Shown piece after piece: positions 5,596 to 27,233 of a DNA stretch of 64,000 nt. Position numbers and translations under genes: made by a program. The stretch comes from a virus. The notes under the pieces were generated by a model. It was not told the origin of the DNA and did not search any database. It saw nothing but the letters and a program-made list of their open reading frames with translations. How positions within the stretch are numbered: the stretch's first letter is position 1; each line of letters starts with the position of its first letter. The stretch covers positions 1-64,000 of the IMG/VR virus record IMGVR_UViG_3300044825_001015; one strand, written 5' to 3'.

Positions 5596-6222
5596 ATGTA
5601 TAAAGATTTAAAAATCATAGAAAATTTTATTGATTTAGAAAGATGTAGATCATTATCCAATGAACTGAGAAAGCAAATTATTTATAATAGCAATACTAAT
5701 TCTAAATCTTTATTTCCTGGAAATGGATTCTATCTTATAGATAAAGATTTGAAAGAATTAATGCCATTAACTAAAGATTCTATGATTAGTGTTGGCTACC
5801 TTAAATATGGAATATCAAAAGAAATAAATGATTTTAACGAAAATATTTTTAACTGTATAAAAGATATTCAAAAAGAGGTAGAATTATTTTTTAATAAAAA
5901 TATTAGTGTGGTCCACGGTGGATATCATTTAATGTGTCCAGGATCAAATAATAATATACATAGAGATGAATATTTGCCATCTAAAGATGGTGCTATGAAT
6001 TATGTAGTTTCTCACTCAGCACTTTTATATTTAAATTCTAACGAAGAAGATTATTCTGGAGGAGAGATTGTTTTTCCAGAAAAAAGCATTAGTTTAAAAA
6101 CCAAAGCAGGAACTTTAATAATTTTTACTGCACAGGAGCCACATGGCGTTACAGAAGTTCTTACTGGTTTGAGAGATGTAATAATATTGTTTTTCCTAAC
6201 TGTAGATGATATACTTAATTAG
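5596..6222 (+). CDS. 2OG-Fe(II) oxygenase (Arg-type)
   Basis: HRD...SALLYLN...YSGGEIVF...HGVTEVLTGLR. Confidence 0.85.
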   Translation: MYKDLKIIENFIDLERCRSLSNELRKQIIYNSNTNSKSLFPGNGFYLIDKDLKELMPLTKDSMISVGYLKYGISKEINDFNENIFNCIKDIQKEVELFFNKNISVVHGGYHLMCPGSNNNIHRDEYLPSKDGAMNYVVSHSALLYLNSNEEDYSGGEIVFPEKSISLKTKAGTLIIFTAQEPHGVTEVLTGLRDVIILFFLTVDDILN

Positions 6223-11157: not shown

Positions 11158-11694
11158 GTGCCCGACAAGAATTTTAAAGTCAAGAATGCCCTTGAATTAG
11201 GAACCGCGTCGATTGTGACGCCTGGTGGGACTCTATCATTACCAAGTTCAACAGATACTGTTGTGGGCAGGGCGACAAGTGATATTTTAAGCAATAAGAC
11301 TTTACAAAGCGTAGAAGAAATAACTACTATATCAGCCATCGCAGCAACGGGAACTATAAACTTTGATGCAGTTACTTCATCGATGTTATATTACACATCT
11401 AATTCAACTGCTAACTGGACATTAAATGTTAGAGGAAATTCTGGCACTACACTTAATTCTATCCTTCCAGTAGGAAGTTCATTAACAATAGTTTTTATGG
11501 CTACTAATGGTACTACCGCATACTATCAAACTGGGTTTCAAATAGATGGAGCATCTCAAACTTTGAGATGGCAAGGAGGATCTGCTCCAACTGAAGGAAC
11601 TGCTTCTGCTATAGATGTATATTCATTCTCTATAACAAAAACTGCAGCAACTCCAACATATGTAGTATTGGCAAGTGTGGCAGGTTTTGCGTAA
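11158..11694 (+). CDS. Fibre adaptor protein, cassette A (paralog of 19932-20564)
   Basis: DKNFKVKN N-terminus; C-terminal YYTSNSTANWTLN...IDVYSFSITKT...FA domain shared with 19932; GTG start 11158 (or 11149). Confidence 0.65.
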   Translation: MPDKNFKVKNALELGTASIVTPGGTLSLPSSTDTVVGRATSDILSNKTLQSVEEITTISAIAATGTINFDAVTSSMLYYTSNSTANWTLNVRGNSGTTLNSILPVGSSLTIVFMATNGTTAYYQTGFQIDGASQTLRWQGGSAPTEGTASAIDVYSFSITKTAATPTYVVLASVAGFA

Positions 11695-12809
11695 TGCCAT
11701 TAATGTCATCCCGTGCGGGAGGCTCTGCAAGAGCATTTGGATTGACAATCCTATCAGCGCTTACCCTTGTCCTTGAAACATTTAATAGGTCTGACCAGTC
11801 TGGTCTTGGTTCGGTTCGCGGTCAAAGATGGAGAGTCTTACGAGGAGTATGGTCAATTGTTGGGAATAAAGCCCTATCTTCAACTGCTGCTGGAGACAAT
11901 GCTTTAGCAACATTAAGATTTACTAAAACAGACGTTACAATTAGTGTATCTGGTGCAGATCCAGGAGTAGGAGCAGCATTCTGGGTTACAGATGCAAATA
12001 ATTGGTATGCTTCTGTTTATACTCAAACAGAAACATGTCAAACATGTTCAAATTGTAATTCTTTTAGTGGTGGTAATTGTGCTGCTGCCACCCCAGGAAA
12101 TTGTAATGCATTTACTCCAGGAACTTGTAATCAAAATGCTACAGGAAATTGTGCGAATGGAACATTCTGCTGTGCAGCGCCGACGCCAGGAACGTGTATT
12201 TCTTTTACATGCCTAGGTGGATTTACCCCAGGAAACTGTAAAGTATTTAATAGTGCTAATACAGGAAATAGAAATCCACCCTTCGGATTTTGCCACGCAC
12301 CATTAGGATTCAACCCTCCAACATGTAATACTTCTATAGTTTGTGCAAATAGCAACCCTCCAACATGTAATGCTGGTCAATGTTGTAACGGAAATTTCCC
12401 TACATGGTCGCCATATTGTGCTGGATTTTTTAATTCTCCTACTTGCCCACCAATAAACTTTAACGCACCAGTTTGTAATTCATTTAATCCAGTAGTTTGT
12501 AATGCATTTTTTACATTTTCCTGCAACTGTACTACTGAACATAGAATTTCAATACTCAGGTCTTTAGCGGGTACAGTTTCTAATATAAGCAATAATTTAT
12601 TTAGTGCAGCAATACAATCATTTAGAGTAATACTTTCTGGAAACCAGGCTACAATACAATCATTTTCAACTGCTTCTTATACATCTCAAATAGGAAATTC
12701 AGTTGTGCAATCTATAACTAGTCCACAAAAAACAACTCAGCATGGTATAATTAAGTCTACTTCAAGTTTTCAGCAAGGAACATCAATAAACGAATTCGGA
12801 GTAAATTGA
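11694..12809 (+). CDS. Putative virion appendage protein: beta-rich domain with a 165-aa, 24-Cys insert
   Basis: Coupled (TAATG) to the adaptor; Cys115-Cys279 with ~8-residue periodic CxxxTPGN/NPPTC units. Confidence 0.65.
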   Translation: MPLMSSRAGGSARAFGLTILSALTLVLETFNRSDQSGLGSVRGQRWRVLRGVWSIVGNKALSSTAAGDNALATLRFTKTDVTISVSGADPGVGAAFWVTDANNWYASVYTQTETCQTCSNCNSFSGGNCAAATPGNCNAFTPGTCNQNATGNCANGTFCCAAPTPGTCISFTCLGGFTPGNCKVFNSANTGNRNPPFGFCHAPLGFNPPTCNTSIVCANSNPPTCNAGQCCNGNFPTWSPYCAGFFNSPTCPPINFNAPVCNSFNPVVCNAFFTFSCNCTTEHRISILRSLAGTVSNISNNLFSAAIQSFRVILSGNQATIQSFSTASYTSQIGNSVVQSITSPQKTTQHGIIKSTSSFQQGTSINEFGVN

Positions 12810-13102
12810 TGAAAAAAAGAGATACTTATAAATCATATTTAATTAAAAAAATATTAGGCGTAGACACTACATACTACAAGCCTAACCCAAAATTTACTAG
12901 ATCAGATCAAGTTCCTATGCATCTTGCACTAGTAATTGATGGGGTAGTTGAAGATATAATTCATTGTGACGAAAGACTTGGCTATATATTATTAAGCAAT
13001 CCAGATATTATTGATATAAAAGATAAATTTAGAAAAGTTAATATATCTGATATATATGATGAAGAATCGAACACTTTTTCTAAGGAAGTAAAAAATGTCT
13101 GA
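12809..13102 (+). CDS. Hypothetical protein (paralog of 13327-13530)
   Basis: LALVIDGVVE...ILLSNPDIIDI. Confidence 0.65.
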   Translation: MKKRDTYKSYLIKKILGVDTTYYKPNPKFTRSDQVPMHLALVIDGVVEDIIHCDERLGYILLSNPDIIDIKDKFRKVNISDIYDEESNTFSKEVKNV

Positions 13103-13334
13103 AAGGCAAGTAAGACCATGGGATCTTTTTAATAAAAAAATGGGTAGAGTAGACAATGAAACCTATAAAAAAAGATTAGAAATTTGTCAAACATGCCCTG
13201 AATTAATAAAAACTACATTTCAATGTAAAAAGTGTGGATGCTTTATGAAACAAAAAAATAAATTAGCAGATGCAAGTTGCCCGCTAAAAAAGTGGGGAGT
13301 TCATAAGATAGAGGAGGTGTCAACAAATGAATGA
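13095..13334 (+). CDS. Small Cys-rich protein (DUF6171-like)
   Basis: RLEICQTC...QCKKCGCFMKQK...SCPLKKW; family name recalled, not searched. Confidence 0.65.
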   Translation: MSERQVRPWDLFNKKMGRVDNETYKKRLEICQTCPELIKTTFQCKKCGCFMKQKNKLADASCPLKKWGVHKIEEVSTNE

Positions 13335-13530: not shown

Positions 13531-14279
13531 TAAAAAGAATTAGATTTGTTCCAAATGATCTATATGCATATGAAAATATAGATCCACCCGTACCATCTAA
13601 AGCACTTGTACCAGATTGGTATAGGTCTGGAGAAATTGCTGTACATGCAGATACGGGTAAAATAGCAAAGACAAGCGATAATCATATAATTGGTGGCATG
13701 AAATCATGCATCCCATTTTTAGACGCAATTATTTCAGGGTACTCAATATGTCTATGGGAAGATTTATATGTAGCAACTACTGATAAGGTAGAAAAATTTT
13801 ATTCAGTTGAAAAAAACCCATATACCGATAATTATGAAGAAAAGCAACAACCATATCTTCCAATGGTAGAAGAAAGAACTGGAGATAGTGGCTATACGAT
13901 TCCTAGACCAAATGGATATTGCCATAACCATATGATTTTTAAGGGTCAATGGGGAGTAAGACTTCCAAAAGGCTGGAGCCTTGAAGTTACACATCCATTA
14001 AATAGGTTTGATCTTCCATTTATTACTACATCTGGTATCATTGATTCAGATGAATGGTGGACTGGAGGAAACATTCCATTTTTCTTCCAGAAGGATTTTG
14101 AAGGAGTTATTCCTAAAGGAACGCCAATAGCACAGTTAATTCCAATAAAAAGAAGTTCATGGATTTCTTATGTTAGTGAATTAAGTGCTTCAAGAAGTAG
14201 ATATATTTCTAATAAAGTTAGATCTGTACCTATGGGATGGTATAAAAATAATATTTGGGTTAAGAAAGAGTACAACTAG
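13527..14279 (+). CDS. dUTPase-fold/DUF6065-related protein
   Basis: KSCIPFLDAIISGY; THPLNRFDLPF..SGIIDSD; IPKGTPIAQLIP. Confidence 0.6.
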   Translation: MIKRIRFVPNDLYAYENIDPPVPSKALVPDWYRSGEIAVHADTGKIAKTSDNHIIGGMKSCIPFLDAIISGYSICLWEDLYVATTDKVEKFYSVEKNPYTDNYEEKQQPYLPMVEERTGDSGYTIPRPNGYCHNHMIFKGQWGVRLPKGWSLEVTHPLNRFDLPFITTSGIIDSDEWWTGGNIPFFFQKDFEGVIPKGTPIAQLIPIKRSSWISYVSELSASRSRYISNKVRSVPMGWYKNNIWVKKEYN

Positions 14280-14280
14280 A

Positions 14281-15036
14281 ATGTCTAAAGAATCATTAAA
14301 TATAGAGTTTCTTCCAGTTGAGAATTTTGGTGTCGGATGTATTGAACCTGTCCCAGCATCTAGAGAAATACCTAAATGGTATAAAAAAATGCCTTCACTA
14401 AGGAAATTTTGGAATCAGGAGGACCCAGATGAAAAAGCAGACTATACAGCAAAAAAATGTATACCAATATTAGATGCATTTACAACTGGATATTATTTAG
14501 TGACTAAATATGATTCATATTGGAGTGTAGATGAAGATGGCACACATGAATGTAAATGCGATGCTAAATTAGTAGAAGGCGGGTCCAAGCCTATCACTAT
14601 GCATCCATATGAGCAGATTAGGGGAATAGAACTCGGAGGCATCTATAACGAATATGCCTATAAGTTTACAAACCCTTTTGTCATTAAAACACCTCCTGGA
14701 TATAGTTGTATGTTTACACATCCATTTAATCAAGTATCTCCATTTCTAACCCTTACTGGAGTGGTAGATACAGATATGCATCCATTGGCAGTACAATTTC
14801 CATTTCTTATGTTAAAGAATTATGAAGGAGTAATCAAATCAGGAACTCCTATTGTTCAAATAATTCCATTTAAGAGAGATGATTGGACGTACTCAGTAAG
14901 AAAGCCAAATAACTTAGATGTTCAGGAAAGTTCTTTAAGGCACAGCCAGTTTGGTTCTACTAGATATGATAAGGACGGAAACCCAACTGGTGGAGAATAC
15001 AAAAAGAAATATCGCGTTAAAAAGAAATATTTGTAG
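14281..15036 (+). CDS. dUTPase-fold/DUF6065-related protein
   Basis: KKCIPILDAFTTGY; TGVVDTD; IKSGTPIVQIIPFKR; start 14281 by alignment with paralogs. Confidence 0.6.
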   Translation: MSKESLNIEFLPVENFGVGCIEPVPASREIPKWYKKMPSLRKFWNQEDPDEKADYTAKKCIPILDAFTTGYYLVTKYDSYWSVDEDGTHECKCDAKLVEGGSKPITMHPYEQIRGIELGGIYNEYAYKFTNPFVIKTPPGYSCMFTHPFNQVSPFLTLTGVVDTDMHPLAVQFPFLMLKNYEGVIKSGTPIVQIIPFKRDDWTYSVRKPNNLDVQESSLRHSQFGSTRYDKDGNPTGGEYKKKYRVKKKYL

Positions 15037-15044
15037 GAGATATT

Positions 15045-15641
15045 GTGGCTATTGAAATATTCCCAGGAGCAGTACAATTCGATTTTTCTAAATCTTTAGC
15101 AAAAGAAATAATTAAGCAAGCAGAAAAATCTAAGTATCCATGGATGGACTCAGCAGTAGGAACGGGGTCTGGTTCTATTGCTAAACATGTTCGATCCAGC
15201 CTATCCCTTGGACTAGATGCCCTAGAAATATCACAAAAAGAAGTAAGACCATACATTTATGAATGTGTAAAACAATATACATCATATTATGATGTAGAGG
15301 TTACAAAAGATGACGGACTTACTCTGCTAAAGTATGAATCTTATGATAAATATCAATTTCATATTGATTATGGTCCAGGTAATTATAGAGAAGTATCATG
15401 TTTAATTTATCTTAATCCAGGTGAATATGAAGGTGGAGGAACAACATTTAAGCATTTTAATTACACTATACAGCCAGAAGAACCTACACTAGTTCTTTTC
15501 CCTTCAAACTACCCATATTTGCACGCAGCAGAACCAGTATCTAAAGGGAGAAAGTATATAATAGTAACATGGATGACAAATCAAATAGATAATATGATGA
15601 CGCATGGATCTGCATGTTCATGTGGGCTTAATCATTTATAA
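15045..15641 (+). CDS. Prolyl-4-hydroxylase-type 2OG-Fe(II) oxygenase
   Basis: FHID...SCLIYLN...YEGGGTTF...HAAEPVSKGRKY (His...Lys+10). Confidence 0.87.
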   Translation: MAIEIFPGAVQFDFSKSLAKEIIKQAEKSKYPWMDSAVGTGSGSIAKHVRSSLSLGLDALEISQKEVRPYIYECVKQYTSYYDVEVTKDDGLTLLKYESYDKYQFHIDYGPGNYREVSCLIYLNPGEYEGGGTTFKHFNYTIQPEEPTLVLFPSNYPYLHAAEPVSKGRKYIIVTWMTNQIDNMMTHGSACSCGLNHL

Positions 15642-15670
15642 AAAAGTAATTTTTGAGTTATAATAATAAT

Positions 15671-16852
15671 ATGGCAAAAGTAGCAAGAGTATGGGATGGT
15701 TCTGAATGGGTTGTACTCTCTCCTGCGACTATAAATCCATACCCATCCCAAACAGGAAATTCTGGTAAATTTTTAAGCACAGATGGGTCTGCAGTATCAT
15801 GGCAAACAGTAGATTTATCTAGTAAGGCTAATATAAATTCTCCAGAATTTACTGGAATTCCAACTGCTCCAACTGCTGCACCAGGAACAAATAGCACCCA
15901 GATTGCTACTACAGGATTTGTTTATAATGAAATATCGCTATTGATAGATGCCGCCCCAGCAGCATTAAATACTTTAAATGAATTAGCAGCAGCACTAGGT
16001 GACGATGCAAATTTTGCCACCACAATAACAAATGCCGTATCAGGCAAAGAGCCTAGTATTCCAACAGGAACTACCCAACAATATTGGAGGGGAGATAAAA
16101 GTTGGCAAACATTAGATAAAAATGCGGTAGGATTAAGCAACGTAGAAAATACTGCTTTAAGTACATGGGCAGGATCAACAAATATAACTACTGTAGGAAC
16201 ATTAACAAATCTAACCGTAACAAATACTATTACAGGAAGTATTACTGGTAATGCTGGAACAGTAACAAATGGGGTATACACTACAGGATCATACTCTAAT
16301 CCATCCTGGATCACATCTCTTTCTGAAACAAAAGTTCTTCCAAGTCAGACAGGAAATTCTGGAAAGTATTTAACTACCAACGGAACGTCCACTTCTTGGA
16401 CAGAACTTAATGTATCTTTTAACTCACCATCTTTTACTGGGACACCTACTGCACCAACTCCTCCAACTGGAAATAATTCCACAAGAATAGCAACCACAGA
16501 ATTTGTTCAAAAGACTCTAGAAATAACACAACTAGATACATTTACGTTCGACGGGAAGACTTTAAGATTTCTTCCAACCTATCTGGGTCAGGTAGTGGAA
16601 ATAGACCACCCACTTAGGCTTTTACTAAACATTAATGGTATAATTCAGATAGTAGCCGAAAAACCAAGCACAGTCTGGCTATCTGGAATGGCAAGTTATG
16701 GTTATTACATAGATGATGAAGGATATGTAGTACTTCCAGAGCCACCAGAACCAGGATCGTACTTTGAGGCTAGGCTATTTCCAGGAGTGGATTTGCAAAA
16801 AAGACCAGAAACTTATCCATTCAGGGCAATTGATATATACTTAGGAGATTAA
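15671..16852 (+). CDS. Tail-fibre-like protein with P2 gpH-type repeat blocks
   Basis: ~150-aa block paralogous to the 9460 protein plus a partial internal copy; start MAKVARVWDG. Confidence 0.78.
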   Translation: MAKVARVWDGSEWVVLSPATINPYPSQTGNSGKFLSTDGSAVSWQTVDLSSKANINSPEFTGIPTAPTAAPGTNSTQIATTGFVYNEISLLIDAAPAALNTLNELAAALGDDANFATTITNAVSGKEPSIPTGTTQQYWRGDKSWQTLDKNAVGLSNVENTALSTWAGSTNITTVGTLTNLTVTNTITGSITGNAGTVTNGVYTTGSYSNPSWITSLSETKVLPSQTGNSGKYLTTNGTSTSWTELNVSFNSPSFTGTPTAPTPPTGNNSTRIATTEFVQKTLEITQLDTFTFDGKTLRFLPTYLGQVVEIDHPLRLLLNINGIIQIVAEKPSTVWLSGMASYGYYIDDEGYVVLPEPPEPGSYFEARLFPGVDLQKRPETYPFRAIDIYLGD

Positions 16853-16856
16853 TTTA

Positions 16857-19800
16857 ATGGCTAGAAGAGTAATTGCAGAGGGTTATAGTTTTGATCCTGC
16901 TGAATCAACAATTGTTATAAATAGATTTATTAGACAAGAGCATTTGACTCTTATTACAAATGTGACCAGAAATACAGTTATCTTCAACTTTTCTGATCCA
17001 GCACTTAATGCTGTCACATATAATGCTCAGACATTAAATACCCGTCAGGGAGCGGTTCTTGATAGAGATACACTAACTTACTCACCGTCTTCAGGAACTA
17101 CAACAATAGAACTTAACTACAATACCTCTGGAATGTCTTCTACAGATAAATTACAGATTCTTGTAGACGAGCCATCAGAAACATTTAGACCAGATGAGGT
17201 TTATAGAGATCCTGTTGACAAACTAAGAGTCTCAACTCCACAGTCATTAATTGATACAGACTTTGAATACTCTCCACAGCCATCAAAATGGGAATCCCTA
17301 AGTTTAAGCCTAAATTATCCTTCATTTTATTCTAGAACGTCTGGAGCCTCAACGTTCGATCTTAATGCTATCTCTGGAGGAGGACAATCTCCAAGATCAA
17401 CAATTACAGTAACAACGAATGTTGCACATGGACTTAATGTTGGTGATGTAGTAGTTGTTCAAGATTCACTTAATCAACTAGCAGAGGGAACATTCTTAGT
17501 AGATACAGTTCCATCATCTACACAACTTACCTATACCGCTGCTGGAGTTGTAAATGGGTCTATTATAGATGGCTCCTACACAACAGTATATGGCGGAGGC
17601 ATCTTTGACGGTGCTAGAATTCCTATTGCTAATTCTGCTTCAGCAATTACATATTCTGGAACAAGAATTACAGTAGCAACAGCCGCACCACACGGACTTT
17701 TGCCTGGAACACCAATTCTTCTTAGAAATATTAGTGCAACCACAAATGCGCCAAATGGAAACTGGGTTGTAGATACAGTAGCAACACCAACAACATTTTC
17801 ATTTACTGCTGCAGCAACACCAACTGGAACACTATCATCTGGAACAAATTTCCAAAGCGCACTTCTTTATGTAAGACCAGAAGGATATCAGCAGCATAGA
17901 GCATTAGATGGTGGTGTTCTAATCACTACTGGAGGTCCATCTAATGGATCTCAAATTATTCGTCAAACAAGACGCTATTTCAGATATCAGTCTGGAAAAG
18001 GAATTCAGTACTCTACTGGCGTTAAATTTACTCCAACATTCGATATTGAATCAATATCAGCAACAGGAAATATTGTAACTATTACTACTATTCAAGATCA
18101 TAATTTGCAAGTTGGAACATCAATAAAAGTAGAGGGAATTATTTCAGCCGCTGGAAATGCAGATAGTGATATTTATAATATTACTGCTGTAGTAGCATCT
18201 ATTACTGGATCTAAGTCATTTACATATAATACAACTTCTGTTCCAACAGATACTGCTCCAGGTGGAACTAATATCTATGTTACAGCAGTAAACTGGAAGG
18301 GATCTGCAGTAAGGGCTGGACTGTTTGATGATCAGAACGGATTCTTCTTTGAGTATGATGGTCAAACATTATATGCATGTAGAAGAGACTCAGTAAAGGA
18401 ATTATTTGGTAGAGTAAGTGTTACCAATGGATCAAGTTCAGTTACTGGAACAGGAACAAGATTTACAGAGCAAGTGGTTGCTGGAGAATATGTTGTAATC
18501 AAGGGTCAAAGTTATATGGTTACATCAATTATTTCTAACACATCCATGACAATTGCACCAGCATACCGTGGAGCAACAAGATCAAATTGTAGATATCTTA
18601 AGACTCAAACTTATAAGATTCCTCAATCTGCATGGAATATGGACCCTGTGGATGGAACTGGCCCATCTGGATACAATATAGATGTTTCAAAGATGCAGAT
18701 GGTTTACATCGATTACACTTGGTATGGTGCAGGACACATTAGATTTGGATTCCGTGGACCTAATGGAGATATTTATTATGCCCATAAGATGCCAAATAAC
18801 AATGTAAATACCGCAGCATATATGCGCTCTGGAAACTTGCCAGGTAGATTTGAGGCTATTAACTATGGCCCAACTACAAGATTAGTTGCTGGTGCAACAG
18901 TCGCAAGAGGTTCTGCATTGTTACCAGCGCATGGAACATTGTATGTAGAGGATGCTGCAAATTGGCCTTCAGAGGGATATATTCTAGTTAAAGACAATGT
19001 AAATTGTGAAATGATAAGGTACCAGAGCCTTGGAGAATATAATGTTTTAGCAAGAGGGTACCCACTATCTAATTTAACTAGAAGAGTTACATATTCATAT
19101 GCTGGAATTAATCCATCAGGATCATTCTCTTCAACAGCATATACTTTATCTGGAACTACTTCAAACGTTACATTCACTCCAGATTCTGGAATGGGTGGAG
19201 TAGGAACTGATGGGCAAGTTTCTGTACAGTATATTTATAGTGATTGTGCCCCAGTTGTTAGCCATTGGGGTGTGTCTGTAATCATGGACGGTAGATATGA
19301 TGATGATAAGTCTATTATTTTCACCGCTGGTATGAATAGATATATGTCAATTGCTGCTGGTGCCCAAAGACCGCTCCTAGCAATTAGAATTGCACCTTCA
19401 GTTGATGCCGGAATTGGAAAGAACTTTGGAATTAGAGAAATTGTAAATAGAATGCAGTTAACTCTTAACTCCATGGAAGTTTTCTCACAGGGACAGTTTT
19501 TGATTGAAGGAATTCTTAATCCACAGACAATCGGCGGCGGCAGTTTAACACTTCCTGCAAACTGGGAAACTATATCAGTAGGATCAGGATCATTGGCCCA
19601 GGTTGTATACTTCGATGGAACTGCCCCATATAGTGCAACTGCAGCAACAGCAAGTGGTACATTTACTGGAGGAGACAGGGTGTTTGCTTTCTATGCAGAA
19701 AACTCTGGTGGAACAAACCCATCTGCTACCTCGTTTGATCTATCAAAGGCTAGAGATCTAGGAACATCTATTCTAAGTGGTGACGGACAGGCTGGAAATA

Positions 19801-19916
19801 TCAATCCTGGATTCCCAGCAGGCCCAGATATTCTACTTATCACAGCAAGAAACCTTGCGGCTACTGGAAATGCTAATATTGCTGCAAGAATTTCATGGAC
19901 AGAAGCACAGGCATAA
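16857..19916 (+). CDS. Large virion structural protein
   Basis: VDKLRVSTPQSLIDTDFEY; three T..AHGL/HNL beta repeats; RQTRRYFRYQSGKG. Confidence 0.7.
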   Translation: MARRVIAEGYSFDPAESTIVINRFIRQEHLTLITNVTRNTVIFNFSDPALNAVTYNAQTLNTRQGAVLDRDTLTYSPSSGTTTIELNYNTSGMSSTDKLQILVDEPSETFRPDEVYRDPVDKLRVSTPQSLIDTDFEYSPQPSKWESLSLSLNYPSFYSRTSGASTFDLNAISGGGQSPRSTITVTTNVAHGLNVGDVVVVQDSLNQLAEGTFLVDTVPSSTQLTYTAAGVVNGSIIDGSYTTVYGGGIFDGARIPIANSASAITYSGTRITVATAAPHGLLPGTPILLRNISATTNAPNGNWVVDTVATPTTFSFTAAATPTGTLSSGTNFQSALLYVRPEGYQQHRALDGGVLITTGGPSNGSQIIRQTRRYFRYQSGKGIQYSTGVKFTPTFDIESISATGNIVTITTIQDHNLQVGTSIKVEGIISAAGNADSDIYNITAVVASITGSKSFTYNTTSVPTDTAPGGTNIYVTAVNWKGSAVRAGLFDDQNGFFFEYDGQTLYACRRDSVKELFGRVSVTNGSSSVTGTGTRFTEQVVAGEYVVIKGQSYMVTSIISNTSMTIAPAYRGATRSNCRYLKTQTYKIPQSAWNMDPVDGTGPSGYNIDVSKMQMVYIDYTWYGAGHIRFGFRGPNGDIYYAHKMPNNNVNTAAYMRSGNLPGRFEAINYGPTTRLVAGATVARGSALLPAHGTLYVEDAANWPSEGYILVKDNVNCEMIRYQSLGEYNVLARGYPLSNLTRRVTYSYAGINPSGSFSSTAYTLSGTTSNVTFTPDSGMGGVGTDGQVSVQYIYSDCAPVVSHWGVSVIMDGRYDDDKSIIFTAGMNRYMSIAAGAQRPLLAIRIAPSVDAGIGKNFGIREIVNRMQLTLNSMEVFSQGQFLIEGILNPQTIGGGSLTLPANWETISVGSGSLAQVVYFDGTAPYSATAATASGTFTGGDRVFAFYAENSGGTNPSATSFDLSKARDLGTSILSGDGQAGNINPGFPAGPDILLITARNLAATGNANIAARISWTEAQA

Positions 19917-19931
19917 GAAAGGAATATTTAA

Positions 19932-20564
19932 ATGCCAATTAATAGAATTAGATTAGATGATGTTGATATTAGAAACATTACGTCTACTACATCATTGCTA
20001 AATACTACATTAGGTCAGGTTCAAGAAGATGTGGCAAATAATCTAATATCTACTAATAACTCTATTGCACAACTACAATCAGATTTAAGAAATCTTGATG
20101 GGGAAGTAGATACAAAGGCAAATATAAATAGTCCTACATTTACTGGTACCGTAACTGCTGGAAGCACATTAATTACAAATGAAGTAGTTGAAAATTACTT
20201 ACTTCGTGGTGAAGGTGCTACTGGAACTTTAAATATAAATATTTCAGATTCATCAATACACTACTATGTAAATAATTCTAGTGCTAACTGGACATTTAAT
20301 TTTAGAGCAAGTGATTCTGTTTCTTTAAACACATTCCTTTCTGGTGGTCAGGCGGTAACTGCAACAATATTAATTACTAATGGTGCTACCCCATTTAGAC
20401 CAACAGCATTTCAAGTAGATGGAGTTTCAACTACCGTAAGATGGGCAGACGCTCTTGTACCAGCATCTGGAAATGCAAATAGTATTGATATTTATTCATT
20501 TAGTATACTTAAGACAGGAAACAACACATTTGTTGTGCTAGGTAGTTTTGCAAGGTTTGCGTAA
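19932..20564 (+). CDS. Fibre adaptor protein, cassette B (coiled coil plus shared C-terminal domain)
   Basis: YYVNNSSANWTFNFR...IDIYSFSILKT...FA, paralogous to 11158. Confidence 0.65.
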   Translation: MPINRIRLDDVDIRNITSTTSLLNTTLGQVQEDVANNLISTNNSIAQLQSDLRNLDGEVDTKANINSPTFTGTVTAGSTLITNEVVENYLLRGEGATGTLNINISDSSIHYYVNNSSANWTFNFRASDSVSLNTFLSGGQAVTATILITNGATPFRPTAFQVDGVSTTVRWADALVPASGNANSIDIYSFSILKTGNNTFVVLGSFARFA

Positions 20565-21481
20565 TGCCTTTTATATCTAAGTTTAGTGGACATGGGAGGG
20601 TTCCTGGAATTCATAAGCCAGAGGCACCACCAACTCCTACACTATCCGCAACTGCTTCAACAATAAACAGCCTAACATTTACGATAAATAACTATGTTGC
20701 AAATTGGACATATGTAATAAGCATATCTCCTAGTGCTGGAACAATATCTCGTACTGATGGAACAGTAAGTGTTACTGGGTTAAATTCAAGTACAACATAT
20801 ACTCTTACTGTAACAGCAAGAAATTCTGGAGGCGAGGCCACAAATACTGTAAATGGAACTACTGGAACTCCACCACCATTCTTCCCTTCATTTGCTCCAT
20901 TCTTTCCCTTCTTCCCAAGTTTTCCCTTCTTCCCATTTTTCCCAAGTTTTCCGTTCTTCCCATTTTTCCCAAGTTTTCCGTCGTTTCCATTCTTCCCCAA
21001 CTTTGTTAGGCCAGGGCCAGCACCAGTAAAAACTGCACCATCTGCAGCGTTATCAGATATACAAAGCATACAAATATTAACATCAGAATATGGATATTTG
21101 GATGCAAAGTATTTAACTGAAGAGGACAAATTAAAGTCATATGCATTAGAAGGAATCGGTACCAATAAAGTAAACATTATTGAAGACATAGATACTGAAA
21201 TAATAAAAATAGATTCTCATAGTGATGTTAGTAATATTTATTTTATTAATAACGAGGGCTATTCTTCAAACTGCTACCTACTCTGTAGAAGGAACGATAT
21301 AATAGATTTTATTAATGTTAAAGAGATAAGCGAATCTGACAAAATTTTTAATTACGAAAATAAAGATTTTGTTGATATAAAATCTTATAGATCAGAAAGC
21401 GTTTCTGGTATTATTTATAATATAGAATGTCTACCAATTAACTACTATGTGATACACAGTAGTTTAGGTTACTTTAAATAA
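20564..21481 (+). CDS. Putative appendage protein: FN3-like domain, (Pro-x-Phe)14 repeat and degenerate Hint-like domain
   Basis: VTGLNSSTTYTLTVTARN (FN3); PFFPSF repeats; C-terminal 140 aa follow the Hint block pattern. Confidence 0.7.
   Translation: MPFISKFSGHGRVPGIHKPEAPPTPTLSATASTINSLTFTINNYVANWTYVISISPSAGTISRTDGTVSVTGLNSSTTYTLTVTARNSGGEATNTVNGTTGTPPPFFPSFAPFFPFFPSFPFFPFFPSFPFFPFFPSFPSFPFFPNFVRPGPAPVKTAPSAALSDIQSIQILTSEYGYLDAKYLTEEDKLKSYALEGIGTNKVNIIEDIDTEIIKIDSHSDVSNIYFINNEGYSSNCYLLCRRNDIIDFINVKEISESDKIFNYENKDFVDIKSYRSESVSGIIYNIECLPINYYVIHSSLGYFK
20876..21004 (+). repeat. Coding tandem repeat: 14 Pro-x-Phe triplets, including ~2.5 copies of a 27-bp unit (20912-20980)
   Basis: TTCCCAAGTTTTCC(C/G)TTCTTCCCATTT repeated. 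Confidence 0.92.
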
Positions 21482-21496
21482 AGAAAGAAAATAAAT

Positions 21497-22225
21497 ATGA
21501 ATGAGTGGCTTGATAAGTCTCGTGAAGAGACTGATACTAGGCGTATGCCAGATAAATATTTAGACGAAATTATTGTATCCAACCCAGCATTAGGAATTAA
21601 TGTATATAGAAATGCTATACCTAAAGATTCATGTAAAAAAACTATATCAACTTTAGAAAAGGTTCTTAACTCTACTGGTCCTTATAGTTGGCAGCCAGCA
21701 AATGTTACTGAATCTGATGACCCGTTATTAGAGGCAAGATACTGTGTTGATTTTAAAATTGGTCAAAAAAATCTAGGTGAAGTAAATCAATATAATAAAA
21801 AATTGTATGAATTACATGAAGACATATTCCAGTATGTCTATAAGTGTTCTGTAGATTATGGAAGATACTGGGGTGTCGGACTGAACTACTTTGAGGTATT
21901 TAATTTTGTTAGATATGAAAGTCCTGGTCAACACTTTAATATTCATGCAGATCATGGACCAGCATATGTAACAACAATATCTGCAGTAGCATACTTAAAT
22001 GATGACTATGAAGGTGGAGAGTTATATTTCCCTAGATTTAATTTAACAATAAAGCCAGAGGCTGGAGATATAGTATTTTTCCCATCTACATTTATTTATG
22101 AGCATTCATCTGAGCCAATGATATCTGGAACTAAATATTCAGTAGTTATAATGACTGATTATAATTCTAGAGGTGGTCTTAGGTATTACCCATACAGACA
22201 AAATGAAGAAACTTTAATTTATTAG
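21497..22225 (+). CDS. Prolyl-4-hydroxylase-type 2OG-Fe(II) oxygenase
   Basis: IHADHG...AYLNDDYEGGELYF...HSSEPMISGTKY. Confidence 0.88.
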   Translation: MNEWLDKSREETDTRRMPDKYLDEIIVSNPALGINVYRNAIPKDSCKKTISTLEKVLNSTGPYSWQPANVTESDDPLLEARYCVDFKIGQKNLGEVNQYNKKLYELHEDIFQYVYKCSVDYGRYWGVGLNYFEVFNFVRYESPGQHFNIHADHGPAYVTTISAVAYLNDDYEGGELYFPRFNLTIKPEAGDIVFFPSTFIYEHSSEPMISGTKYSVVIMTDYNSRGGLRYYPYRQNEETLIY

Positions 22226-22232
22226 GATTTAT

Positions 22233-22931
22233 ATGGAAGATATAAAAGATATAGAAAATAATATTAAAAATTTTTATTCTTATTCTGGACAAACATGGTC
22301 TTCATATGAAGAGGTTGCAAATGGTATATATGTTTTCCATGACTTAATCCCTAGTGTATCGGTAAAAATGCTAGAAGATGTTATGTCTGATACCTATAAT
22401 CCATATTCTTATTCCAAGGCTATGGTGGGGTATCAAATGCATATACCAGAGTACAGAGATTGCTTGGACTTTAAATATAAAAAAACAGATATTGAAAATG
22501 ACAATAGTATATCTGGAATGATGCTTAAGAAACTATGGGATATGATTTATAACAAATCATTGCCTGCCGTTAAAAAATATTGTGAAGATTTTAATATAGG
22601 AGAACTTAGGTACTGGGAGTCTATGAATTTTGTTAAGTATGGCCCTGGTCAACATTTTCAGGAGCATCATGACCATGGTTTTTCTTATAATTGTGTAGTT
22701 TCTTTAGTAGGATATCCAAATGATGATTATGAGGGTGGAGAGATATATTTTAGAAGGCAGGGTTTAGAAATAAAGCCAAAAGCAGGGGACCTGTTTGTGT
22801 TTCCATCAAATTTCATGTATCCACATAGAGCAATGCCAGTAAAAAGCGGTAATAAGTACTCTATAGTCACGATGCTTGATTACTCAGATAAGTTTCACAA
22901 GCCAGAATTTTATCAGGAAACCAATTCATGA
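22233..22931 (+). CDS. Prolyl-4-hydroxylase-type 2OG-Fe(II) oxygenase
   Basis: EHHDHG...YPNDDYEGGEIYF...HRAMPVKSGNKY. Confidence 0.88.
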   Translation: MEDIKDIENNIKNFYSYSGQTWSSYEEVANGIYVFHDLIPSVSVKMLEDVMSDTYNPYSYSKAMVGYQMHIPEYRDCLDFKYKKTDIENDNSISGMMLKKLWDMIYNKSLPAVKKYCEDFNIGELRYWESMNFVKYGPGQHFQEHHDHGFSYNCVVSLVGYPNDDYEGGEIYFRRQGLEIKPKAGDLFVFPSNFMYPHRAMPVKSGNKYSIVTMLDYSDKFHKPEFYQETNS

Positions 22932-23641
22932 ATTTAATAGATGCATATCAATCAGAAGAATCAGTTGTAAATATTGATCAACTTCCTATGTCAAGAGACT
23001 GGATGGATAGGACATTTAGTAAGCATTCCTATCATTGCTTTCCGATGACTTTATCTAATAGATTAGGATGGGGAATATCCTTAAAACATGACTTCTGCTT
23101 TATATGGGATGGTGAAGAGTCTTCTAGTTCTCATCATATTAATATAATTAAAGGTCAAGATTATGTAAGTAATCTTAGAGGAAACAAAACAATAAGCATA
23201 GATACTGGACTATATATTTCTCCACAAAAAAATATTTCAATATTAACTATGCCTCCTCCCAATATTTTTATTGAAGGTCTGCAATGCATAAGTACTATTA
23301 TTAGCACATCTGCAATGGTCGGGCCTCTTCCAATAGCATTGATGGCTAATATTCCAAACAAAAAAATCTATATTAAGGCAGGAACAATATTGGCTAGCAT
23401 CCTTCCTGTTAAACTTTCTGAAATGAATGAGACAGAACTTCACATTAAAAAAGGAATACCTCCCTTTATGATGACTAAAGAATGGACAGACAACTTTGAA
23501 GAAAGAAGTAAAGTTTCAATGGAGGTAAATTCCAAGGGAGGGTGGAATGATTTTTATAGAGATGCTATAGACCATAGAGGTGTAAGGCATGGAGAGCATG
23601 AGGCTAAAAAAATAATTATGAAGGTAGTCCATGAAGATTAA
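22928..23641 (+). CDS. DUF6065-like protein
   Basis: RDWMD...HSYHCFPMTLSNRLGW; PPPNIF; IKAGTILASILP; FYRDA. Confidence 0.65.
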   Translation: MNLIDAYQSEESVVNIDQLPMSRDWMDRTFSKHSYHCFPMTLSNRLGWGISLKHDFCFIWDGEESSSSHHINIIKGQDYVSNLRGNKTISIDTGLYISPQKNISILTMPPPNIFIEGLQCISTIISTSAMVGPLPIALMANIPNKKIYIKAGTILASILPVKLSEMNETELHIKKGIPPFMMTKEWTDNFEERSKVSMEVNSKGGWNDFYRDAIDHRGVRHGEHEAKKIIMKVVHED

Positions 23642-24353
23642 TTTCATATCTAATAGGCCATGGTTAAATAAAAAAAGTAAAACTAATCCAGAACCCTCAG
23701 TAAAAAATATACCTGACTGGTATATAAAAGAGAGTAGATATGTTAAAGATGATTTAGGAAACTATACCCTAGATCAATACGGACATAAAGTTCCTTCCTG
23801 GAAAGGCTGTCCAGCAATATATGACATTATTGGTACTGGGTATGTATTGAAAACACCATGTGACATTGAATTTTACCAAGATGGCGATGATTTTAAAGTA
23901 AAACTTAACAAAAGATATTCAGATTTCATACAGTATAGGCCAGACTGGTCATTGCATGGATTTCCTAAGCCAGAGGGATATAGAAAGGACCACTTTGCTT
24001 GGTGGCCTGATTGGGCAATAGAAGTTCCAGATGGATATAGCGTTTTATACTCTCAGCCATTCAATAGATTTGACCTACCATTTTTAAATACTACTGGAAT
24101 TGTAGACAACGATAAGGTAAACCTTCCAGGAACTATGCCATTTTTTGTAAGAGAGGGATGGGAGGGAGTAATAAAGCAAGGTACCCCATATCTACAAATT
24201 TTACCATTTAAAAGAGAAGATTGGGATTCTGACTATATTTTCCCAGATGAATACGAAATGTATGAAAAAAATATGAAGAATATTGAAAAGTATAGAGTAC
24301 CTGGAGGGGGAGTCTATCTTAATCAAGTATGGTCTAAGAGAAGGTACTCATAG
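23631..24353 (+). CDS. dUTPase-fold/DUF6065-related protein
   Basis: WKGCPAIYDIIGTGY; QPFNRFDLPF..TGIVDND; IKQGTPYLQILPFKR. Confidence 0.6.
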   Translation: MKINFISNRPWLNKKSKTNPEPSVKNIPDWYIKESRYVKDDLGNYTLDQYGHKVPSWKGCPAIYDIIGTGYVLKTPCDIEFYQDGDDFKVKLNKRYSDFIQYRPDWSLHGFPKPEGYRKDHFAWWPDWAIEVPDGYSVLYSQPFNRFDLPFLNTTGIVDNDKVNLPGTMPFFVREGWEGVIKQGTPYLQILPFKREDWDSDYIFPDEYEMYEKNMKNIEKYRVPGGGVYLNQVWSKRRYS

Positions 24354-26885: not shown

Positions 26886-27233
26886 ATGAAAAAGAAAAAT
26901 AATCATAGAGTAACTATGGTCGATGAAAGCGACTATGGGTTATATTTATGGCAGACTATAGATGGTAAATTAGTCTGTGATGAAGATGCAAACTATCTAA
27001 ACATACCATCAAAAAAGGGCGACAAGGAAAAAATAAAACTTCTAGAATTAGCCGCAAAAGATTGCGGGATAATTGGAGGTCAGCCAGTATTTTTCTCTGG
27101 GAATAGAAGAGTTACTGATGAAGAATATGAATATCAAAAGCAGAGAATGGAATGGGGTCTGGTCCCAGACGAACTTGACTACGGAGCAGCACGCGAAGAA
27201 TTAATGAATTATAAAAAGGCTAAGGGTCTATAA
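26886..27233 (+). CDS. Hypothetical protein upstream of the portal
   Basis: ORF track; TAATG coupling to the portal. Confidence 0.7.
   Translation: MKKKNNHRVTMVDESDYGLYLWQTIDGKLVCDEDANYLNIPSKKGDKEKIKLLELAAKDCGIIGGQPVFFSGNRRVTDEEYEYQKQRMEWGLVPDELDYGAAREELMNYKKAKGL

What the first reader, a model, noticed from the sequence alone, without database searches (positions are those of the whole stretch)
15045..22931. All three cassette oxygenases carry the peptidyl-prolyl-4-hydroxylase Lys signature
Seen: HAAEPVSKGRKY, HSSEPMISGTKY and HRAMPVKSGNKY. Established: collagen, plant and algal P4Hs bind 2OG through a Lys ten residues after the distal His (H-x3-P-V-x2-G-x-K-W), whereas most 2OG oxygenases use Arg. 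Their position next to Pro-repeat proteins supports peptidyl-Pro as the substrate (inference).
Basis: partly seen in the sequence, partly recalled or inferred. Interest (0 to 1): 0.7.

Follow-up and report, generated by a model that had tools for sequence, protein, structure and literature searches.

The report
Phage prolyl-hydroxylase-like enzymes beside proline-repeat proteins
Three enzymes in the fibre-gene region of an uncultured phage have the cofactor-binding residues of collagen-type proline hydroxylases, and in related phages this enzyme type almost always sits next to a Pro-Phe repeat protein, a testable candidate substrate for phage oxygenases of unknown role.

Summary
The three motifs lie at nt 15522-15557, 22103-22138 and 22824-22859. 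Each sits in a PF13640 domain 53-54 residues after an HxD, with Lys ten residues after the distal His.

The Lys aligns with the 2OG-binding Lys of solved P4Hs from B. anthracis and chlorovirus PBCV-1. It is kept in 69/72 and 82/86 orthologues. An AF2 model (pLDDT 93) matches only prolyl hydroxylases among the listed best Foldseek hits.

The genome has seven PF13640 genes: four Lys-type and three Arg-type. The one Arg-type paralogue tested is closest to prolyl 3-hydroxylase 1. So Lys marks a lineage here, not the whole family.

The substrate inference gains strong two-way synteny for cassette B:
- 49/52 oxygenase-anchored loci have a (P)PFF-repeat protein within five genes upstream.
- 48/54 repeat-anchored loci have an oxygenase within five genes downstream, and the first is Lys-type in 44.
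- The conserved core is two Lys-type oxygenases plus two DUF6065 proteins.

Support is weaker for cassette A, the Cys-rich insert protein. No chemistry is shown. Lys alone does not prove Pro specificity: HIF prolyl hydroxylases use Arg, and Lys/Arg switched about 19 times on my tree.

This scan found the same system on other phage genomes. I rate it a new variant of a known kind, of moderate to high interest.

The parts
15045..15641 (+). oxy1: Lys-type PF13640 2OG-Fe(II) oxygenase of cassette A (HID106, His160, Lys170; keeps Tyr at His-3 and Trp at Lys+6)
15522..15557 (+). motif HAAEPVSKGRKY (distal His to Lys+10, then Tyr)
   Evidence: aligned to B. anthracis P4H LHGGAPVTKGEKW
21497..22225 (+). 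oxyA: Lys-type PF13640 oxygenase of cassette B (HAD150, His203, Lys213)
22103..22138 (+). motif HSSEPMISGTKY
22233..22931 (+). oxyB: Lys-type PF13640 oxygenase of cassette B (HHD145, His198, Lys208); AF2 model pLDDT 93
22824..22859 (+). motif HRAMPVKSGNKY
   Evidence: profile alignment to PBCV-1 P4H HAGLPVKSGEK
20564..21481 (+). FN3 domain + Pro-Phe repeat + C-terminal domain protein; candidate substrate of oxyA/oxyB
   Evidence: (fn3)
20870..21004 (+). Pro-Phe repeat tract, 45 aa (residues 103-147), built of PFF and PSF units
11694..12809 (+). cassette A protein with a hypervariable Cys/Pro/Asn-rich insert (TPGNC / NPPTC units); weaker candidate substrate of oxy1
13095..13334 (+). DUF6171 small Cys-rich protein; in related loci it accompanies only repeat proteins that carry a Cys-rich segment
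13527..14279 (+). DUF6065/phrog_7084 paralogue (cassette A)
14284..15036 (+). DUF6065/phrog_7084 paralogue (cassette A)
22928..23641 (+). DUF6065 paralogue (cassette B); AF2 model pLDDT 89.5 with a weak dUTPase-like fold match
23631..24353 (+). DUF6065/phrog_7084 paralogue (cassette B)
5596..6222 (+). Arg-type PF13640 paralogue outside the cassettes (HGV...R); contrast case

Best explanation
The three genes encode active-looking Fe(II)/2-oxoglutarate oxygenases of the collagen-type prolyl 4-hydroxylase lineage. They have the HxD...H iron triad, and 2OG is held by Tyr at His-9, a Ser aligned with the P4H Thr, and Lys at distal His+10.

They sit in the late fibre/appendage gene block of a 105-kb siphovirus-like phage of uncultured, probably actinobacterial, hosts. 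I infer that they are dedicated tailoring enzymes for the repeat proteins encoded just upstream. In cassette B, oxyA and oxyB hydroxylate prolines of the Pro-Phe tract of the FN3 protein 20564-21481, each probably working with one DUF6065 partner. In cassette A, oxy1 with two DUF6065 proteins and the DUF6171 Cys protein acts on the Cys/Pro-rich insert of 11694-12809.

Hydroxylation would make a very hydrophobic polyproline-like tract polar. It may also create acceptor sites for the GT60-type GlcNAc-transferase that the genome encodes elsewhere and that relatives place inside these cassettes.

Shown: family, fold, conserved catalytic and cofactor residues, and conserved two-way gene linkage. 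Inferred: substrate identity, Pro as the target residue, regiochemistry, the DUF6065 role and glycosylation.
For: - PF13640 hits for all three.
- Residue-level alignment of His and Lys+10 to B. anthracis and PBCV-1 P4Hs.
- A profile of 109 Lys-type sequences finds P4Hs first in the PDB: 3itq at 8e-10 and 5c5t at 3e-6, followed by 6iuq and P4H-TM, and then LH3, PKHD-type, P3H1 and EGLN1.
- In that alignment Y136, H145, D147, S157, H198 and K208 are invariant. This matches the Tyr/Thr/Lys 2OG site described for P4Hs (PMC7948501).
- AF2 model pLDDT 93.3, pTM 0.90. All listed Foldseek PDB hits (ranks 1-50) are prolyl hydroxylases.
- Lys+10 is kept in 69/72 oxyA and 82/86 oxyB orthologues.
- Linkage from the oxygenase side: a Pro-rich protein lies within five genes upstream in 49/52 loci, directly adjacent in 35, against 74 Pro-rich genes among all 1300 genes.
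- Linkage from the repeat side: 48/54 loci fetched only by an FFPPFFPFFP-coding DNA pattern have a PF13640 gene within five genes downstream. The first is Lys-type in 44. The recurrent order is K-d-K-d or K-K-d-d, followed by Arg-type genes.
- In the window's own genome the only protein with 30% or more Pro in a 40-aa window is the one beside oxyA/oxyB.
- A PF11397 (GlcNAc-transferase) gene lies inside cassettes in 7/80 loci and at 78739-79758 of this genome. GT60 Gnt1 is the hydroxyproline GlcNAc-transferase that acts after PhyA (PMC6939170). That PF11397 is the GT60 family is from my memory.
- Cassette A is syntenic in four relatives and occurs without cassette B in L088.
Against: - No biochemical or proteomic evidence for Hyp exists.
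- The related loci share ancestry, so the synteny counts are not independent events.
- In the repeat, the second aromatic position (Phe) is as invariant as Pro, so Phe could be the target.
- oxyA/oxyB have Phe and Met where P4Hs have the activity residues Tyr (His-3) and Trp (Lys+6).
- Cassette A's insert has no conserved Pro register.
- The fourth Lys-type paralogue (88993-89595) has no Pro-rich neighbour.
- The closest cultured-phage homologues lie next to denV, not next to repeat proteins.
- The correlation between Pro count of the tract and number of oxygenases is weak in my data (Spearman 0.30, p 0.025, n 57, uncorrected for phylogeny).
Confidence: 0.55

Rival explanations
1. The oxygenases do tailor the adjacent repeat proteins but attack a residue other than proline. 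Examples are beta-hydroxylation or cross-linking of the invariant Phe (or Tyr/His) in the Pro-Phe tract, or Asn/Cys-proximal chemistry in the Cys-rich insert.
For: - The second aromatic position of each repeat unit is as conserved as Pro across repeat variants (PFFP, PHFP, PYFP, PSFP, PxFCP).
- oxyA/oxyB lack the Tyr (His-3) and Trp (Lys+6) residues labelled as P4H-activity residues.
- An Arg-type paralogue gives a faint hit to the cyclophane-peptide oxygenase YhhC (E 0.0025, far below cut-off).
- Up to eight or more different oxygenases follow one repeat gene in relatives, more than simple Pro hydroxylation seems to need.
Against: - Every close solved relative by sequence and fold is a prolyl hydroxylase.
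- The repeats are 35-50% Pro.
- The YhhC hit is not significant.
Confidence: 0.2
2. The oxygenases are not protein-tailoring enzymes for virion proteins. They would be auxiliary metabolic or secondary-metabolite genes: 2OG drawdown, DNA or RNA base repair, or small-molecule hydroxylation, as proposed for cyanophage 2OG oxygenases. Their position beside repeat proteins would then be a hitch-hiking effect of a hypervariable region.
For: - Published proposals exist for DNA repair and 2OG/NtcA modulation (PMC3037559).
- Iyer et al. proposed secondary-metabolite synthesis for the Syn9 array of ten dioxygenases plus a dUTPase-fold protein with a conserved Cys (PMC2938197).
- The nearest cultured-phage homologue is adjacent to denV.
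- PHROGs file the family under 'moron, auxiliary metabolic gene'.
Against: - The two-way, long-lived linkage to one particular kind of protein holds across loci whose other neighbours differ.
- The genes are tightly packed on the same strand inside a fibre/virion block.
- Accessory genes track substrate composition: DUF6171 appears only with Cys-rich repeat proteins, 17/35 against 0/75.
- There is no similarity to AlkB or TET-type nucleic-acid oxygenases among the top PDB hits.
Confidence: 0.12
3. The enzymes are prolyl hydroxylases, but their targets are host proteins or other virion proteins, not the neighbouring repeat proteins. Host examples are EF-Tu or ribosomal proteins, as for Pseudomonas PPHD or OGFOD1. 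A virion example is the tail-fibre PTAPT motifs of 15653-16852.
For: - The top Foldseek hit is the P. putida P4H-EF-Tu complex 4iw3.
- The fibre gene 15653-16852 directly follows oxy1 and carries PTAPT-type motifs.
- A prolyl dihydroxylase-like protein was reported in a cyanophage virion proteome and judged non-structural (PMC12801897).
Against: - The fibre neighbours vary or are absent (L088) while the repeat-oxygenase link persists.
- PPHD and OGFOD1 are Arg-type and score lower by sequence than collagen-type P4Hs.
Confidence: 0.08

Closest known systems
Chlorovirus PBCV-1 prolyl 4-hydroxylase (vCPH, PDB 5c5t) and that virus's own Pro-rich repeat proteins
   Same: - A virus-encoded, small, monomer-sized collagen-type P4H with the same distal His-to-Lys motif, HAGLPVKSGEK.
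- It matches by sequence (E 3e-6 with the profile) and by fold.
- The virus also encodes Pro-rich repeats that serve as substrates (Eriksson et al. 1999, cited in PMC9301287).
   Different: - The host here is a bacterium, not an alga.
- The repeat is aromatic (PFF/PPFF), not PAPK-like.
- The enzymes come as a conserved pair with two DUF6065 partners and are physically linked to the substrate gene.
- No activity has been shown here.
Bacillus anthracis P4H (PDB 3itq, 5hv0)
   Same: - It is the best sequence match among solved structures: E 6.5e-8, 3e-7 and 7e-4 for the three proteins, and 8e-10 for the profile.
- His and Lys+10 align, as does the YLND...GGE core.
   Different: - Identity is only about 16-20%.
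- oxyA/oxyB have Phe and Met at two substrate-contact positions.
- From my own knowledge, the physiological substrate of the Bacillus enzyme is itself uncertain.
Syn9-type cyanophage tandem dioxygenase arrays (Iyer, Abhiman, de Souza, Aravind 2010, PMC2938197) and the 2OG-Fe(II) oxygenases of T4-like cyanophages (Sullivan et al. 2010, PMC3037559)
   Same: - Multiple divergent classical 2OG oxygenases lie in tandem in a phage, together with a dUTPase-fold protein that has a conserved Cys. The DUF6065 proteins here have an invariant Cys and a weak dUTPase-like fold match.
   Different: - Those papers proposed secondary-metabolite, DNA-repair or 2OG-level roles and named no protein substrate.
- Here there are no halogenases.
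- The arrays are anchored to a Pro-Phe repeat structural protein.
Skp1 PhyA (P4H) plus Gnt1 (GT60 HyPro GlcNAc-transferase) pathway of Dictyostelium and Toxoplasma
   Same: - A cytoplasmic P4H is followed by a GlcNAc-transferase; the phage gene belongs to PF11397, which I take to be the GT60 family. This gene occurs inside the cassettes of some relatives and elsewhere in this genome.
   Different: - PhyA is Arg-type (6iuq alignment).
- GT60 also contains Thr-directed enzymes.
- The glycosyltransferase is not in the window's cassettes.
- The target here is a long repeat, not a single Pro.
Prolyl 3-hydroxylase 1 (P3H1/leprecan, PDB 8k0e)
   Same: - It is the best PDB match of the Arg-type paralogue 91608-92183 (E 7e-8), with the HGVK..G.R segment aligned. 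Arg-type genes follow the Lys-type core in most related cassettes.
   Different: - It concerns the Arg-type paralogues, none of which lies in the two cassettes of this window.

Membership tests
Pfam PF13640 (2OG-FeII_Oxy_3; P4H-type 2OG oxygenases) | Score above the curated gathering threshold (27 bits) | tested here: met
   52.6, 50.5 and 53.3 bits.
Collagen-type prolyl 4-hydroxylases (C-P4H, plant/algal P4H, vCPH, BaP4H, P4H-TM) | HxD...H iron-binding triad on a double-stranded beta-helix | tested here: met
   HID106/H160, HAD150/H203 and HHD145/H198. They are invariant in 109 sequences. The fold is confirmed by the AF2 model and Foldseek.
Collagen-type prolyl 4-hydroxylases | Lys at distal His+10 binding the 2OG C-5 carboxylate (Arg in HIF-type P4Hs) | tested here: met
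   K170, K213 and K208 align to the Lys of 3itq and 5c5t. K208 is invariant in alignment A3. The rule is stated in PMC7948501.
Collagen-type prolyl 4-hydroxylases | Tyr at proximal His-9 and Thr on the following strand, completing the 2OG site | tested here: met
   Y136 is invariant. S157 is invariant and aligns with the Thr of IST-LVMYLND in BaP4H, a conservative Thr-to-Ser change.
Collagen-type prolyl 4-hydroxylases | Substrate-contact/activity residues Tyr at His-3 and Trp at Lys+6 (Tyr325 and Trp457 in P4H-TM) | tested here: inconclusive
   oxy1 has both (Y103, W176). oxyA and oxyB have Phe and Met, which are 90% or more conserved as F142 and M214 in A3.
Collagen-type prolyl 4-hydroxylases | Closer to P4Hs than to other PF13640 subfamilies (LH, P3H, PKHD/PiuC, OGFOD1, EGLN) | tested here: met
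   Profile against the PDB gives P4Hs at 8e-10 to 6e-5, ahead of LH3 (3e-4), PKHD (7e-4), P3H1 (9e-4) and EGLN1 (2e-3). No tree with reference P4Hs could be built because no reference sequences were at hand.
Collagen-type prolyl 4-hydroxylases | Peptidyl-proline 4-hydroxylation activity | not testable with these tools
   This needs an enzyme assay or mass spectrometry.
Pfam PF19541 (DUF6065), the cassette partner proteins | Score above the gathering threshold (26.6 bits) | tested here: met
   22928-23641 scores 76.2 bits and 14284-15036 scores 28.1 bits. The other two match only phrog_7084. All four align with an invariant Cys.

The most novel reading that the evidence does not exclude
Bacteriophages of uncultured freshwater-type hosts make their own hydroxyproline-rich, possibly GlcNAc-glycosylated, virion appendage. 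A conserved machine of two Lys-type P4H-like oxygenases, each paired with a dUTPase-fold DUF6065 protein, converts a hydrophobic (PFF/PPFF)n tract into a polar polyproline-II rod. Add-on modules are matched to substrate features: P3H-like Arg-type oxygenases, a DUF6171 protein for Cys-rich tails, a GT60-type transferase, and a Hint domain for C-terminal release. This would be a phage counterpart of plant extensin or collagen maturation, and it would give a function to the abundant 'P4HA' genes of aquatic viromes.
Probability: 0.3. Interest if true: 0.8.

Novelty: new variant of a known kind. Interest (0 to 1): 0.58.

Why it matters
2OG-Fe(II) oxygenases are among the commonest unexplained genes in aquatic phages. 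Published ideas are indirect: DNA repair, 2OG/NtcA modulation and secondary metabolites (PMC3037559, PMC2938197). A 2022 virome study states that how viruses use P4H 'remains cryptic' (PMC9301287).

A conserved, two-way linkage between Lys-type P4H-like enzymes and a defined repeat protein gives a concrete enzyme-substrate pair. It can be tested with a simple co-expression and mass-spectrometry experiment.

If confirmed, it would show post-translational proline hydroxylation of bacteriophage structural proteins. That would extend the single viral precedent (chlorovirus PBCV-1) to phages. It would also assign a role to DUF6065, which recurs one-for-one with these oxygenases.

Tried and rejected
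- Megablast of the region against cultured phages found nothing. The window's own record is masked and there are no close isolates.
- tblastn of oxyB against cultured phages gave only distant cyanophage and Methylophilales-phage hits (29-39% identity). Those I inspected (S-MbCM7, S-H9-1) are Arg-type, lie next to denV, and have no Pro-rich neighbour. The cassette is therefore not present in those isolates.
- NCBIfam gave only sub-threshold hits (PRK05467 Fe2+-dependent dioxygenase; YhhC at E 0.0025) and no functional assignment.
- The DUF6065 fold search gave only weak dUTPase-like matches (TM 0.32-0.39, E about 5e-4). No function can be drawn from this.
- A PDB sequence search with the PF11397 transferase found nothing. 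A literature search for PF11397 gave one irrelevant paper. The equation PF11397 = CAZy GT60 rests on my memory.
- The correlation between Pro number in the tract and oxygenase count is weak (rho 0.30), so I do not lean on it.
- I considered that Lys might be a universal trait of phage PF13640 genes. That is rejected: 3 of 7 in this genome and about 45% in related loci are Arg-type.
- I considered that Lys is a strict functional marker. That is rejected too: about 19 Lys/Arg switches on the tree, although some may be errors of my motif parser.
- I could not build a tree with reference P4Hs because no reference sequences were available by id.
- I could not inspect model coordinates to check the geometry of Lys208.


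Full report
**What the window is.**
The window is the first 64 kb of a 104,844-bp viral genome with direct terminal repeats, judged complete.
- Its portal is 59% identical to those of about 127-130-kb Streptomyces phages.
- It has a 2102-aa tape-measure protein, a head protease and a major-head-like protein.
- Region 7.6-26.8 kb, upstream of the portal gene, is full of tail-fibre-like and 'virion structural' proteins.
- All genes of this region lie on the + strand and are tightly packed.

**Check of the observation.**
The three ORFs and the three quoted peptides are exactly as described.
- In each protein the motif begins 53-54 residues after an HxD, and Lys lies ten residues after the distal His.
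- The generalised pattern occurs three times in all six frames of the window, only in these genes.
- All three are PF13640 members above threshold. PHROGs puts them in phrog_61, '2OG-Fe(II) oxygenase'.
- So this is not chance. It is the C-terminal signature of a domain family.

**Is the Lys the P4H Lys?**
- phmmer of oxy1 against all PDB chains puts B. anthracis P4H first (E 6.5e-8). It aligns LHaaePVsKGrKY with LHGGAPVTKGEKW, and PBCV-1 P4H aligns as LHAGLPVKSGEKI.
- oxyA and oxyB also hit BaP4H first.
- I built a profile of 109 Lys-type sequences (oxyA and oxyB orthologues plus the other two Lys-type paralogues). It ranks BaP4H at 8e-10, vCPH at 3e-6, 6iuq at 5e-5 and P4H-TM at 6e-5. These come ahead of lysyl hydroxylase LH3, PKHD-type enzymes, P3H1 and EGLN1.
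- In that alignment Y136, H145, D147, S157, H198 and K208 are invariant.
- The P4H-TM structure paper states that 2OG is held by Tyr319 (His328-9), Thr375 and Lys451 (His441+10). It also states that Lys and Thr are conserved in P4Hs except HIF-P4Hs, which have Arg and Leu (PMC7948501). The phage enzymes therefore have the collagen-type version of the site, with Ser in place of Thr by alignment.
- An AF2 model of oxyB is confident (pLDDT 93.3, pTM 0.90). All Foldseek PDB matches listed (ranks 1-50) are prolyl hydroxylases: PPHD, Cr-P4H-1, PHD2, vCPH, BaP4H and human C-P4H-II, with TM about 0.5-0.64.

**Limits of the 'signature'.**
- The genome has seven PF13640 genes. Four are Lys-type: the three cassette genes plus 88993-89595. 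Three are Arg-type with an HGV...R segment.
- The Arg-type 91608-92183 is closest to prolyl 3-hydroxylase 1 (E 7e-8), with HGVK..G.R aligned. It also hits Cr-P4H, BaP4H and vCPH. So both types look like protein prolyl hydroxylases, and Lys against Arg parallels P4H against P3H rather than Pro against non-Pro.
- Among 475 PF13640 genes in 80 related loci, 249 were classed Lys+10 and 186 Arg+10.
- On a FastTree of 286 non-redundant sequences the state changes at least 19 times, against 92 for shuffled labels. It is a strong lineage trait but not fixed.
- The closest cultured-phage homologue of oxyB (cyanophage T4-GC_104) reads FPSNFMYPHEIKEVTDGTRYS. It is Arg-type and lies next to denV.
- oxyA and oxyB carry Phe and Met where P4H-TM lists the activity residues Tyr325 (His-3) and Trp457 (Lys+6). 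oxy1 keeps Tyr and Trp.

**The substrate inference, cassette B.**
A scan of IMG/VR with the Lys-type alignment returned 80 loci whose oxyB orthologues are 57-72% identical.
- Immediately upstream of the oxygenase pair there is nearly always a protein with a tract of PFF/PPFF units. Variants include PHFP, PYFP, PSFP and PxFCP, usually after an FN3 domain.
- This holds even where BLAST finds no similarity to the window's protein.
- With 3 kb or more of upstream flank, 49 of 52 loci have such a protein within five genes on the same strand, directly adjacent in 35. In total, 74 of all 1300 genes are Pro-rich by the same criterion.
- For the reverse test I fetched loci only by a DNA pattern encoding FFPPFFPFFP. 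Of 54 loci with 3 kb or more downstream, 48 have a PF13640 gene within five genes. The first is Lys-type in 44.
- The recurring order is K-d-K-d or K-K-d-d (d = DUF6065), followed by Arg-type genes.
- The conserved core is therefore exactly what the window has: repeat protein, two Lys-type oxygenases and two DUF6065 proteins. The window simply lacks the accessory Arg-type genes.
- These counts are not phylogenetically independent. However, the surrounding fibre genes differ widely among loci.

**Cassette A.**
Four relatives keep this order: Cys-rich-insert protein, small gene, DUF6171, small gene, DUF6065, (GT), DUF6065, oxy1. L088 has it without cassette B.
- The insert is hypervariable. Its Cys ladder is conserved, but the Pro positions are not (TPGNC, NPPTC, NPSTC, LGPC, LGNC).
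- So proline as the target is much less secure here.
- DUF6171 homologues lie within 2.5 kb downstream of a Pro-rich repeat protein only when that protein also has a Cys-rich segment: 17/35 against 0/75, Fisher p 1e-10, uncorrected for relatedness.
- This shows that accessory genes in these cassettes track substrate composition. That indirectly supports an enzyme-substrate reading.

**Other components.**
- The four DUF6065/phrog_7084 proteins share an invariant Cys. The model (pLDDT 89.5) gives only weak dUTPase-like fold matches.
- Iyer et al. [quoted passage not shown] They proposed secondary-metabolite synthesis (PMC2938197).
- A PF11397 GlcNAc-transferase gene sits inside cassettes in 7 of 80 loci (for example L088 6270-7262, E 2.4e-20) and at 78739-79758 of this genome.
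- GT60 Gnt1 adds GlcNAc to the hydroxyproline made by PhyA, although the GT60 family also holds Thr-directed enzymes (PMC6939170).
- In several relatives the repeat is followed by a Hint/intein-like domain that starts with Cys (sub-threshold Pfam hits). The window's copy gave no such hit.

**Literature and earlier notes.**
- Multiple 2OG oxygenases in cyanomyoviruses are well known. Proposed roles are DNA repair or 2OG modulation, and their functions 'have not been specifically investigated' (PMC3037559; PMC9602691).
- P4HA is among the most abundant viral auxiliary genes in Baltic water, and its use 'remains cryptic' (PMC9301287).
- I found no paper linking phage P4H-like enzymes to Pro-Phe repeat proteins in the searched library.
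- Within this scan, the same system was noted and followed up on several other phage genomes with the same conclusion. Those are AI notes. I re-derived the linkage independently here.

**Verdict.**
- The enzymes are collagen-type P4H-like by every test available.
- The Lys is a real, conserved lineage marker, but it is not proof of proline specificity.
- The substrate proposal is well supported by comparative genomics for cassette B, weakly for cassette A, and untested chemically.

Noticed in passing
window 13095-13334; L069, L075, L077, L080: The small DUF6171 Cys protein follows a Pro-rich repeat protein only when that protein carries a Cys-rich segment (17/35 against 0/75 loci). It looks like an accessory matched to Cys-rich substrates.
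   Followed up: partly
own genome 78739-79758 (outside the window; L091 1312-2331); L088 6270-7262; L008 234-1247; L046 8189-9193: A PF11397 GlcNAc-transferase (which I take to be the CAZy GT60 family, that of the Skp1 hydroxyproline GlcNAc-transferase) is encoded in this genome. In 7 of 80 related loci it lies inside the oxygenase cassettes.
   Followed up: partly
L030 1963-3342, L033 7801-9093, L056 4255-5523, L058 3730-4971: In relatives the Pro-Phe tract is followed by a Hint/intein-like domain beginning with Cys (sub-threshold Pfam Hint, Intein_splicing and PT-HINT hits). The window's homologue 20564-21481 gives no Hint hit.
   Followed up: partly
own genome 91608-92183 (L004 1240-1815); window 5596-6222; own genome 83151-83867: Three Arg-type PF13640 paralogues with an HGV...R segment. 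Only 91608-92183 was searched against the PDB, and it is closest to human prolyl 3-hydroxylase 1 (E 7e-8). Arg-type genes follow the Lys-type core in most related cassettes.
   Followed up: partly
L095-L171: Gene order alternates oxygenase-DUF6065-oxygenase-DUF6065 in most loci but is oxygenase-oxygenase-DUF6065-DUF6065 in the window and some relatives. The 1:1 numbers suggest enzyme-partner pairs.
   Followed up: no
window 27233-28810 and 16857-19916: Mosaic ancestry. The portal is 59% identical to Streptomyces siphovirus portals. The 1019-aa structural protein is about 40% identical to 'virion structural proteins' of T4-like cyanomyoviruses (S-PM2, Syn1, S-RIM44).
   Followed up: no
L093 217-2547 (Synechococcus phage S-MbCM7): Right after the gp12 short tail fibre gene, this cultured cyanophage has two 2OG oxygenases flanking a 303-aa hypothetical protein. 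The first is Lys-type (HRGNPPLEGTKY), and the middle protein is not Pro-rich.
   Followed up: partly
window 14185-15036: The longest ORF starts at GTG 14185 and overlaps the previous gene by 95 nt. The ATG at 14284 gives a 250-aa protein that matches the family length and is the likelier start.
   Followed up: no
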